From: the human T2T-CHM13v2.0 reference genome, Homo sapiens
Reading direction: 5' to 3'
Assembly: GCA_009914755.4 (NCBI GenBank)
Contig: CP086569.2
Coordinates: forward strand, 608,001 to 672,000
Length of the DNA stretch: 64,000 nucleotides
In this document: piece by piece, positions 408-1,560 of the stretch
Position numbering within the stretch: position 1 is the stretch's first letter
Layout: every line of letters begins with the position of its first letter
Translations under genes and position numbers: made by a program
Notes under the pieces: model-generated
What the model was told of the DNA's origin: nothing
Seen by the model: only the letters and a program-made list of their open reading frames with translations
Database searches by the model: none

Positions 408-1560
408 TATCTTTCCCCTGTTGAATCTGTTTCTCTGGAAGGGAAGTTTGCAAAAAAGAAAAAAACCTTAACGTATGAATAAATGATGTCTACAAAAAGC
501 AAATCCTACAGTCACGGGTGCAGGTACATTTTTCTTTGCAATTCTAGCAAATTCTCCCCTTGGGAATACAAAATACGCCATTCTTTTTTTTAATTCTTGT
601 TTTAAGGATGGCCACTGTCACAGAACATGAGTGAGGGACGGTATCTGCGTACGTTGAAAATGCTCACGGTTTCTGGTGCAGAGATTTCTCTGGAGTAATG
701 GCATTTTTCTGTGTGGCAGTTAGCATTTAGAGTGAATAGAGTTTTTCTCTCTCTCTTTTTTTTTTTTTTTTGCAGTGTTATGCACTCGAAAATGTCATCT
801 TTTTTCTATTCCTTTTAAAATCAAATTACAACCTGACATTCAATAAAATATCTTTTGCGCAACTAATAAAAACAAGACCCTCGCTGCCTTGACAATTAAG
901 GCACGGGGTCCGACACGCCGCCTCCGATACAGTTTACGGCTTCCCTTTGATGTCAGGGTTTCCTATATTAAAAAAAAAAAAGAGCCCCATTATTTATTAA
1001 TAGCCTTCTGTGTTTTAAACGTTTCTTTTTCTTGTGTGGAGAGAAAAAAAATCATTTGCCTTTTAATGGGGTGTCAGATTTGCTTTCGAAACCTTCTAAA
1101 AGGTTATCGTTGTTGAATACGAACAAGTTTCTTTCTGCGGAATCAATGAAGACTCTGTTTCCCGGGCTGCTCCGTGGAAAACTTAATTTCACCATTTTGC
1201 AAAGTGCAGGGCTGGGACGTTTCACTGCGGTTAACTATTTTCACATGGAAGGTAAAGAAAAATGCAAAGTCCTCACACGTACTAAATAACCTGCAGGCTG
1301 CCTTATGTCCGGGACGTCTTGCAACGGCCTGGCGGTTAGAGCTCACGGAGATGTCCAGTTCAATTAGATGCTTCGTAAACCTGCTAGCAATTAACTCAGC
1401 CAGGAGCTGAGACCGAACACCAGGACTAAGAGGGGGTTACATCCCGGTCCAGGAGCTGAGACTTAACTGCCAGCTCCTGAACTACCTCGAGGCCGAGCTA
1501 GCAGTATCTACCAGCTTGACCAGCTGCCCTGGAGAAAATGACCCACCTCCAAATTCTATA

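What the first reader, a model, noticed from the sequence alone, without database searches (positions are those of the whole stretch)
600..1500. Unique block with almost no CpG depletion at only ~43% GC: candidate deeply conserved enhancer or ncRNA
Hand count gives 33 CpG in 900 bp, an obs/exp of about 0.8, at a GC content far below island range. Unconstrained mammalian DNA does not look like this. The block includes a segment with 6 CpG in 60 bp (ggcacggggtccgacacgccgcctccgatacagtttacggc, 901-940). There are TAAT-core motifs (gacaattaagg, ctagcaattaactc), AATAAA motifs and several short palindromes (gggacgtc, ttcgaa, ctcgag). There is no ORF longer than 85 aa. Possible explanations are extreme purifying selection (an ultraconserved-type developmental enhancer), germline-unmethylated DNA, or very recent origin of the sequence.
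Basis: partly seen in the sequence, partly recalled or inferred. Interest (0 to 1): 0.55.

Follow-up and report, generated by a model that had tools for sequence, protein, structure and literature searches.

The report
AT-rich DNA block that kept its CpGs
A roughly 1-kb single-copy stretch of primate non-coding DNA has kept nearly all its CpG sites while the Alu repeats touching it lost about two thirds of theirs, which most likely marks an ordinary regulatory region left unmethylated in germ cells rather than an ultraconserved enhancer or an RNA gene.

Summary
Positions 601-1500 hold 33 CpG at 42.6% GC, an obs/exp of 0.81. That is the highest of any 900-bp stretch in the window (median 0.36; Poisson P about 3e-5). 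TpG and CpA show no excess, so there is no trace of past CpG decay. The signal is one peak (o/e at least 1.0 from about 850 to 1100; 1.05 over 786-1285 at 38% GC) with shoulders, and it falls to 0.3 before the right-hand Alu.

The window supplies its own clock. Its 58 Alus kept a median 34% of their CpGs, and the Alu CpGs nearest the block decayed to TG/CA. A 14-bp target-site duplication shows the block pre-dates the right-hand AluS. This makes "very recent origin" very unlikely.

The ncRNA idea has no support from Rfam, a tRNA scan or fold z-scores. Nothing suggests coding or foreign DNA. The TAAT, AATAAA and palindrome motifs are within chance.

Cross-species conservation and germline methylation could not be tested here. 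Published data show typical ultraconserved elements are CpG-poor, while CpG o/e rises with the age of sperm hypomethylation. The best reading is a germline-unmethylated AT-rich weak CpG island, promoter-like or enhancer. It is a known kind of feature, and interest is low to moderate.

The parts
600..1500 (.). CpG-retaining block as reported: 33 CpG, GC 0.426, o/e 0.81, TpG and CpA o/e both 1.00
850..1100 (.). Core of the anomaly. In 200-bp windows CpG o/e is 1.05-1.37 and TG+CA o/e is 0.71-0.75, at GC 0.38-0.40. It includes the six-CpG cluster at 904-937.
   Evidence: CpG positions
786..1285 (.). Best 500-bp window: o/e 1.05 at GC 0.38. This corresponds to the intermediate-CpG class (o/e above 0.75 but GC below 0.55).
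917..972 (+). Motif cluster at the centre of the peak: GC-box-like CCGCCTCC (917-925), CRE/AP-1-like TGATGTCA (948-955) and TATA-like TATATTAAAA (963-972). This is a possible core promoter for a + strand transcript starting near 1000. It is an inference only.
   Evidence: sequence; TGAYRTCA found once against 0.03 expected
411..1547 (.). The whole single-copy segment between the two Alus: o/e 0.72. The left shoulder 411-599 has o/e 0.51, and there are no CpGs after 1494.
126..410 (-). Left flanking AluS: 5.6% non-CpG divergence and 7 of 24 CpGs kept. The three sites nearest the block decayed to TG, CA and CA. No clear target-site duplication was found.
1560..1875 (-). Right flanking AluS with its (TTA)n/T tail: 4.7% non-CpG divergence and 14 of 24 CpGs kept. 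The four sites nearest the block are lost (TG, TG, GG, CA).
1546..1559 (.). Left copy of the right Alu's target-site duplication, CCTCCAAATTCTAT. The right copy, CCTCCAAGTTCTAT, is at 1874-1887 (13 of 14 identical). This shows the block was already in place when the AluS inserted.
1447..1482 (.). Local 12-bp-stem hairpin GTCCAGGAGCTG..CAGCTCCTGAAC, together with the direct repeat CCAGGAGCTGAGAC at 1400 and 1449. It lies at the decaying right edge and its significance is unknown.
   Evidence: z -2.6

Best explanation
The block is a roughly 1-kb region of primate non-coding DNA that has stayed unmethylated in the germline for tens of millions of years. It is in effect an AT-rich, weak (intermediate-CpG) CpG island. 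Unmethylated cytosines do not undergo the fast 5mC-to-T deamination, so its CpGs persisted while methylated neighbours decayed. Such protection is normally given by transcription-factor or promoter-complex occupancy in germ cells or the early embryo. The most likely function is therefore a cis-regulatory element, either an unannotated non-CpG-island promoter or a strong enhancer. The single peak sits on a GC-box, CRE-like and TATA-like cluster at 917-972, which slightly favours a promoter-type element with a start site near 1000 on the + strand. What is shown: the CpG retention, the lack of decay products, the peak shape, the sharp contrast with the adjoining Alus, and an age of at least one AluS. 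What is inferred: hypomethylation as the cause, and the regulatory function.
For: 1. CpG o/e is 0.81 over 900 bp and 1.05 over 786-1285 at 38% GC. TpG and CpA o/e are both 1.00, against 1.24 and 1.19 in other single-copy DNA, so there is no deamination footprint.
2. The profile is one bell-shaped peak with graded shoulders. CpG spacing is Poisson-like (CV 0.99) rather than a few discrete cores. That suits a region-wide mutational regime with drifting borders.
3. Internal clock: 58 Alus in the same window kept a median 34% of consensus CpGs. The two Alus touching the block kept 29% and 58%, and their block-proximal CpGs decayed to TG/CA. Methylation-driven decay therefore operated right up to the block.
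4. The 13/14 target-site duplication of the right AluS places the block before that insertion. If the block had decayed like the Alus it would have needed o/e 1.4-2.8 at that time.
5. Literature: older sperm hypomethylated regions have higher CpG o/e (PMC5793779, section 8). UCNEs as a class are CpG-poor (PMC5836973), so conservation alone does not predict the signal.
6. Other single-copy islands in the same window show the same behaviour (37.7-39.8 kb at o/e 0.53-0.66; 41147-41480 at 0.79). This fits a locus with several such regulatory regions.
Against: No methylation data were available, so hypomethylation is inferred only from its expected mutational footprint. CpG density (3.7 per 100 bp) and GC (43%) are well below typical constitutively unmethylated islands. 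The block fails Takai-Jones criteria, and only 1250-1509 marginally meets Gardiner-Garden criteria. No transcript, exon or annotated gene could be tied to it. The promoter-like motifs are short and individually weak. Strong purifying selection over the same interval would give the same single-genome picture and cannot be excluded without alignments.
Confidence: 0.55

Rival explanations
1. Deeply conserved developmental enhancer. The CpGs persist because the whole block is under strong purifying selection (ultraconserved or CNE type), whatever its methylation state.
For: The composition is AT-rich, as in CNEs. TAAT cores are nominally enriched (12 against 7.1 expected, P=0.05), as are YMRTAAA posterior-HOX/CDX-like sites (5 against 1.4, P=0.013, uncorrected). 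A second island at 38.1-39.8 kb carries PBX-HOX-like TGATTTATGG and several TAAT sites. A minority of UCNEs are CpG-dense, about 4 per 100 nt (PMC5836973).
Against: Typical UCNEs have genome-average CpG density (0.9 per 100 nt) and a mean length of 327 nt. Here 3.7 per 100 nt extends over 900 bp. The CpG excess is graded and spread evenly, not confined to cores. The block contains mutable T20, A12 and (TC)n runs, and it sits in a very Alu-dense, minisatellite-rich setting (about 58 Alus in 64 kb) that is unusual for developmental gene deserts (from general knowledge). The motif enrichments do not survive multiple-testing correction. Conservation itself was not testable. This rival can also hold together with hypomethylation.
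Confidence: 0.22
2. Exon or UTR of an unannotated, conserved non-coding transcript, or a structured ncRNA, with sequence kept by selection at the RNA level.
For: There is a very strong polypyrimidine tract plus AG at 745-776 and a moderate donor-like site GAAG|GTAAAG at 1250, which would delimit a 474-nt candidate + strand exon. AATAAA occurs at 842 and 865. Two local folds have z of about -2.6 to -2.8.
Against: Rfam finds nothing at gathering threshold and only chance-level hits at E above 2. There is no tRNA. Sliding-window fold z-scores average -0.35 and -0.55, and the few dips are unremarkable for 52 tests. AATAAA is not enriched. The CpG excess extends well outside the candidate exon on both sides. 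No protein or ORF homologue was found.
Confidence: 0.1
3. Recent origin. The sequence arrived or was overwritten recently (young insertion, gene conversion or foreign DNA) and has not had time to lose its CpGs.
For: A young sequence would show both high CpG o/e and no TpG/CpA excess. The left Alu's target-site duplication could not be found, so the left junction is not dated.
Against: The right AluS (4.7% non-CpG divergence) has an intact 13/14 target-site duplication that abuts the block. Alus of that age in this window kept about 35% of their CpGs, so the block would have needed an o/e of 1.4-2.8 at that time. There is no second copy in the window. There is no match in plasmids, phages, viral, metagenome or prokaryote contigs. 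There is no coding remnant of a retrocopy. The graded shoulders are not what an insertion with sharp ends would give.
Confidence: 0.05
4. Chance fluctuation of CpG content in ordinary methylated DNA.
For: Only one genome and one window were examined. Short segments elsewhere reach o/e 0.8 (for example 52057-52208, 152 bp).
Against: Poisson P is 2.6e-5 against the window's own elevated background and 1e-8 or less against 0.20-0.25. The block holds the top four of about 1,260 sliding windows. The independent TpG/CpA statistic agrees.
Confidence: 0.01

Closest known systems
Germline (sperm) hypomethylated regions outside annotated CpG islands, also called weak or intermediate-CpG promoters (the ICP class of Weber et al. 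2007, cited from memory)
   Same: The size is about 1 kb. CpG o/e is above 0.75 with GC below 0.55. There is a single peak with decaying shores and a sharp contrast with methylated flanking repeats. CpG o/e scales with the age of hypomethylation (PMC5793779).
   Different: GC is only 38-43%, at the low extreme for such regions. No gene, transcript or methylation measurement is linked to it here.
Classical CpG island (Gardiner-Garden and Frommer 1987; Takai and Jones 2002)
   Same: CpG o/e is about 0.8-1.0 and TpG/CpA shows no excess. The presumed cause, escape from germline methylation, is the same.
   Different: It fails the GC criterion over most of its length. Only 1250-1509 reaches GC of at least 0.50 with o/e of at least 0.6, and no 500-bp window meets Takai-Jones. 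CpG density is about 3.7 per 100 bp, against roughly 8-10 for typical islands (from general knowledge).
Ultraconserved non-coding elements (UCNEbase; Bejerano-type UCEs)
   Same: It is AT-rich, non-coding, single-copy and carries homeodomain-type motifs. A small CpG-dense subset of UCNEs (about 4 CpG per 100 nt) exists (PMC5836973).
   Different: The class as a whole is CpG-poor (0.9 per 100 nt) and short (mean 327 nt). The block is three times longer, contains long homopolymer runs and lies in Alu-dense DNA. The defining property, at least 95% human-chicken identity, was not testable.
Low-methylated regions at distal regulatory elements (Stadler et al. 2011, cited from memory)
   Same: They are CpG-poor to intermediate, bound by transcription factors and lie outside CpG islands.
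   Different: These regions are usually smaller and only partly demethylated, which should leave clearer CpG depletion than the o/e of about 1.0 seen in the 850-1100 core.

Membership tests
Classical CpG island | At least 200 bp with GC of at least 50% and CpG o/e of at least 0.6 (Gardiner-Garden and Frommer) | tested here: inconclusive
   Only 200-bp windows starting at 1250-1310 qualify (GC 0.505-0.55, o/e 0.60-0.71). The core at 850-1100 has o/e 1.05-1.37 but GC 0.38-0.40.
Classical CpG island | At least 500 bp with GC of at least 55% and o/e of at least 0.65 (Takai and Jones) | tested here: not met
   No qualifying window exists in 400-1600.
Germline hypomethylated region / intermediate-CpG promoter | CpG o/e above 0.75 in a 500-bp window with GC below 0.55 (neither the high-CpG nor the low-CpG class) | tested here: met
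   786-1285 has o/e 1.05 and GC 0.38.
Germline hypomethylated region / intermediate-CpG promoter | Low methylation in sperm, oocyte or primordial-germ-cell bisulfite data | not testable with these tools
   No methylome resource is available. It is inferred only from the absence of a decay footprint and the contrast with the Alus.
Germline hypomethylated region / intermediate-CpG promoter | A transcription start site or regulatory chromatin marks at the centre | not testable with these tools
   Only motif-level hints exist (GC box, TGATGTCA and a TATA-like element at 917-972).
Ultraconserved / highly conserved non-coding element | At least 200 bp at 95-100% identity across distant vertebrates | not testable with these tools
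   No vertebrate orthologue could be retrieved. The spurious-ORF search was empty, as were the exact-pattern scans of metagenome, prokaryote and viral contigs.
Ultraconserved / highly conserved non-coding element | Typical composition of the class: about 37% GC, about 0.9 CpG per 100 nt, about 330 nt long | tested here: not met
   The block has 3.7 CpG per 100 nt over 900 bp, compared with the class figures in PMC5836973. This is typical of the class rather than strictly defining.
Known structured ncRNA family (Rfam) | A covariance-model hit at the family's gathering score | tested here: not met
   There are no hits in the whole window. The best permissive hits are E=2.3 and 2.9, far below the gathering scores. 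There are no tRNAs.
Young transposon insertion or retrocopy | Younger than the surrounding repeats, with its own target-site duplication or poly(A), or other copies or a coding remnant | tested here: not met
   The block pre-dates the right AluS (target-site duplication). It is single-copy in the window. No protein similarity was found in six frames. No target-site duplication was found around the T20/A12-bracketed segment.

The most novel reading that the evidence does not exclude
The block could be an unusually long (at least 500 bp) CpG-dense element conserved across vertebrates that is also kept unmethylated in the germline. One example would be an unannotated promoter or enhancer of a developmental (HOX-like) locus, embedded atypically in Alu- and minisatellite-rich DNA. 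In that case both selection and hypomethylation would act on a 38%-GC sequence that shows no CpG depletion at all.
Probability: 0.12. Interest if true: 0.5.

Novelty: new member of a known kind. Interest (0 to 1): 0.25.

Why it matters
If the reading is right, this is one more non-island regulatory region protected from germline methylation, a class already mapped genome-wide by sperm methylomes. Its value is mainly methodological. A single sequence plus the Alus around it, used as an internal clock, is enough to show that CpG decay was locally suppressed for more than about 30 million years and to make 'recent origin' very unlikely. The analysis also shows that high CpG o/e at low GC should not be read as a signature of ultraconservation. 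For the locus itself, it flags a probable unannotated promoter or enhancer, plus companion islands at 37.7-43.9 kb, in a 64-kb stretch with no coding gene.

Tried and rejected
1. Spurious-ORF route to orthologues. A 1,040-aa chimera of all ORFs of at least 35 aa from six frames of 411-1560 was searched against 5.8 billion proteins. There was no hit, not even to human itself. The collection therefore holds no gene calls on this DNA and the trick says nothing about conservation. It does argue against a coding sequence or pseudogene.
2. Exact-pattern scans. Two different 24-25-mers were run against metagenome contigs and prokaryote genome contigs, and one against viral contigs, hoping for host-contaminant contigs. 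All were empty.
3. Foreign or vector DNA. blastn against plasmids and phages found no match.
4. Naming the locus through exons. Pfam on all single-copy ORFs of at least 50 aa from 21.7-63.3 kb found nothing. A PDB sequence search on 0.6-21.9 kb found only an L1 ORF2 tail, which served as a positive control. A protein search on ORFs of 38-44 kb found nothing. A full-text search for six sequence strings found no papers. The locus remains unidentified. A HOX-cluster-like neighbourhood was considered from motif content but has no evidence behind it.
5. Regional hypomethylation spreading into the Alus was rejected. Alu CpG retention next to the block is ordinary and the proximal sites have decayed.
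6. A pol III type-3 small RNA gene on the minus strand (TATA at about 965, T5 at about 870, hairpin at 876-910) was considered. There is no PSE-like element, no Rfam hit, and z is only about -1.5 to -1.9 on that strand, so it was dropped.
7. The 773-969 segment as a retroposed element bracketed by T20 and A12 was considered. No target-site duplication or properly placed poly(A) signal exists, so it was dropped.
8. A PRDM9 or CTCF motif as the cause was checked by eye. No convincing match lies inside the CpG-rich part.

Full report
WHAT THE WINDOW IS. Alignment to Alu consensus sequences, written from memory, finds 58 Alu copies in 64 kb, and 53% of the window is repeated within itself. The reported block is the single-copy segment 411-1547. 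It lies between two minus-strand AluS elements at 126-410 and 1560-1875.

CHECK OF THE OBSERVATION. The window as a whole has o/e 0.36. The four best of about 1,260 sliding 900-bp windows all fall on this block, putting it in the top 0.3%. Given the window's own background, 14.7 CpGs are expected (Poisson P = 2.6e-5). Against a 0.20-0.25 background P is 1e-8 or lower. The six-CpG cluster at 901-940 and every quoted motif string are present.

Two further measurements sharpen the picture. First, TpG and CpA, the products of methyl-CpG deamination, are each at exactly 1.00 of expectation in the block. In the other single-copy DNA of the window they are at 1.24 and 1.19. The block therefore shows no footprint of past decay. 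Second, once the Alus are removed, the CpG profile is a single peak:
- o/e is about 0.4-0.5 at the far left (1-105 and 411-599);
- it rises to 0.6-0.85 around 550-700;
- it dips at the T-rich tract near 750-800;
- it reaches 1.05-1.37 from about 850 to 1100, where TG+CA is only 0.71-0.75;
- it declines gradually to 0.67 by about 1400 and drops to 0.3 by 1450-1500;
- there are no CpGs at all in 1501-1560 or 1876-1950.
One 500-bp window (786-1285) has o/e 1.05 at 38% GC.

TAAT occurs 12 times against 7.1 expected (P=0.05, uncorrected). AATAAA occurs 3 times against 1.1. Six-bp palindromes number 17 against 12.5. The longest stop-to-stop ORF is 105 aa against 91 ± 20. Only the CpG anomaly is a solid signal.

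AN INTERNAL CLOCK MAKES RECENT ORIGIN VERY UNLIKELY. For every Alu I counted how many consensus CpG sites are still CpG, and the divergence at non-CpG sites. Median retention is 34%, and AluS copies with about 5% non-CpG divergence range from 4% to 62%. The left flanking Alu kept 7 of 24 (29%) and the right one 14 of 24 (58%). In both, the sites closest to the block have decayed, mostly to TG or CA, the methylation signature. The right AluS carries a 14-bp target-site duplication, CCTCCAAATTCTAT at 1546-1559 and CCTCCAAGTTCTAT at 1874-1887. The block was therefore already joined to the downstream DNA when that Alu inserted. From general knowledge of primate neutral rates, 4.7% divergence corresponds to roughly 30-40 million years. 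If the block's CpGs had decayed at the rate of the Alus touching it, it would have needed an o/e of 1.4-2.8 at that time, which is not plausible. CpG loss has therefore been locally suppressed for a long period. The left Alu's duplication could not be identified (best match 8 of 11), so only the right junction is dated.

WHAT IT IS NOT.
- Not a known RNA family. Rfam gives no hit at gathering thresholds over the whole window. At permissive thresholds it gives only two chance-level hits on 400-1600, at E 2.3 and 2.9. ARAGORN finds no tRNA.
- Not obviously structured. For 120-nt sliding windows the mean z is -0.35 on the + strand and -0.55 on the - strand. The extremes are -3.0 (861-980, +) and -3.9 (1421-1540, -) among 52 tests. 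Refolding with 200 shuffles gives z of -2.8 and -2.6.
- Not coding. A chimera of all ORFs from six frames found nothing among 5.8 billion proteins.
- Not foreign or vector DNA. It has no match in plasmids or phages, nor in viral, metagenome or prokaryote contigs.
- Not repeated elsewhere in the window.

CONTEXT. No cellular coding exon was found anywhere in the 64 kb. Pfam was run on single-copy ORFs from 21.7-63.3 kb. A PDB sequence search covered 0.6-21.9 kb and detected only an L1 ORF2 remnant, which served as a positive control. A protein search covered 38-44 kb. The locus could not be named, and no paper prints the sequence.

The block is not alone. Other single-copy stretches also keep their CpGs: 37731-39827 (o/e 0.53-0.66), 41147-41480 (0.79) and 42853-43881 (0.52 at GC 0.40). 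The region at 38.1-39.8 kb reads like regulatory DNA, with TGATTTATGG, several TAAT sites and a GGTATAAAAAGG element.

MECHANISM. Two processes can hold CpGs in a mammalian genome: absence of germline methylation, or purifying selection. They cannot be separated rigorously from one genome, and neither methylomes nor vertebrate alignments are reachable with these tools. The balance of indirect evidence favours hypomethylation as the immediate cause.
1. The excess is spread over about 900 bp with Poisson-like spacing (CV 0.99) and graded shoulders. That is expected of a regional mutational regime with drifting borders, not of discrete constrained cores.
2. The block contains T20, A12 and (TC)n runs, which are unlikely inside a continuously ultraconserved kilobase. 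This step is an inference.
3. Published data show that UCNEs as a class are not CpG-rich. [quoted passage not shown] The block has 3.7 per 100 nt.
4. In a seven-species sperm methylome comparison, CpG o/e increases with the evolutionary age of the hypomethylated region (PMC5793779, section 8). An o/e near 1.0 therefore points to old, stable hypomethylation.

The peak centre coincides with a GC-box-like CCGCCTCC (917-925), a CRE/AP-1-like TGATGTCA (948-955) and a TATA-like TATATTAAAA (963-972). A donor-like GAAG|GTAAAG lies at 1250. A promoter-type unmethylated region with a + strand start near 1000 is the most specific model I can offer, but these are short motifs and this step is inference. 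An enhancer-type element, possibly also conserved, remains a serious alternative and could hold together with hypomethylation.

COMPARISON WITH KNOWN KINDS. Functionally and mutationally the block behaves like a CpG island. It fails the GC criterion over most of its length and fails Takai-Jones entirely. By the promoter-class thresholds I recall from Weber et al. 2007 it falls in the intermediate-CpG class, with o/e above 0.75 and GC below 0.55. Membership of the germline-hypomethylated class needs a methylome and membership of the UCNE class needs alignments. Both are listed as untestable here.

VERDICT. 'Ultraconserved enhancer' is untested and is not what the CpG signal predicts. 'ncRNA' has no support. 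'Very recent origin' is very unlikely. The feature belongs to a well-known kind and is almost certainly already visible in public methylation and conservation tracks. Interest is low to moderate.

Noticed in passing
window 37731-39827, 41147-41480, 42853-43881: Further single-copy islands keep their CpGs (o/e 0.53-0.79). The 38.1-39.8 kb stretch has PBX-HOX-like TGATTTATGG, several TAAT sites, a GGTATAAAAAGG TATA box near 38470 and a (GT)24 repeat at 38033-38081. It is probably a companion regulatory or promoter region.
   Followed up: partly
window ~39030-39140: A heavily truncated L1PA-like 3' end inside that second island reads CCAGCGTGGCACACGTATACGTATG. The L1PA consensus as I remember it has CCAGCATGGCACATGTATACATATG, so there are three extra CpGs in 25 bp. 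If confirmed, CpG gain or retention in a non-functional repeat would favour hypomethylation over selection there.
   Followed up: no
window 26258-28863; 17975-18714; 58365-59608; 20314-20814; 51631-52056: There are very long tetranucleotide arrays: (GATA)n of 2.6 kb, (ATCT)n of 0.74 kb, (AGAT)n of 1.2 kb, (GAAA)n and (AAGA)n. They explain the extreme GC and AT skews in the composition profile.
   Followed up: partly
window 3579-4762; 8872-9836; 15079-16214; 61828-62886; 8289-8816: The window holds several minisatellites: 89 bp x 13.3, 356 bp x 2.8, a 142/280-bp array of about 1.1 kb, 339 bp x 3.1 at 95% identity, and a (CTCCTC)n tract of about 0.5 kb. Such a density of tandem arrays alongside about 58 Alus is unusual.
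   Followed up: no
window 37285-37722 and 13542-14011: Tandem duplications of about 135-137-bp Alu sub-units occur (3.2 copies at 95% and 3.5 copies at 84%). These are Alu-internal tandem expansions rather than separate insertions.
   Followed up: no
window 753-772 and 970-984: A T20 run and an A12 run form a perfect 15-nt inverted repeat (CTCTTTTTTTTTTTT / AAAAAAAAAAAAGAG) that brackets the most CpG-dense 197 bp of the block. No target-site duplication was found and its meaning is unknown.
   Followed up: partly
window 1400-1482: The direct repeat CCAGGAGCTGAGAC occurs at 1400 and 1449, next to a 12-bp-stem hairpin at 1447-1482. Together they give a locally stable fold (z -2.6 on the minus strand) at the decaying right edge of the block.
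   Followed up: partly
window 1917-1950 and 2428-2460: The near-identical 33-bp strings ctgtagg[g/c]aggacagatagaatagaatttaga flank a roughly 480-bp cluster of Alu fragments. They may be a long duplication created by a complex insertion just right of the block.
   Followed up: no
window 7300-7860: An old L1 ORF2 C-terminal remnant (PDB match to LINE-1 ORF2p residues about 1176-1263, E 2.5e-46) is the only protein-coding similarity found in the whole window.
   Followed up: yes
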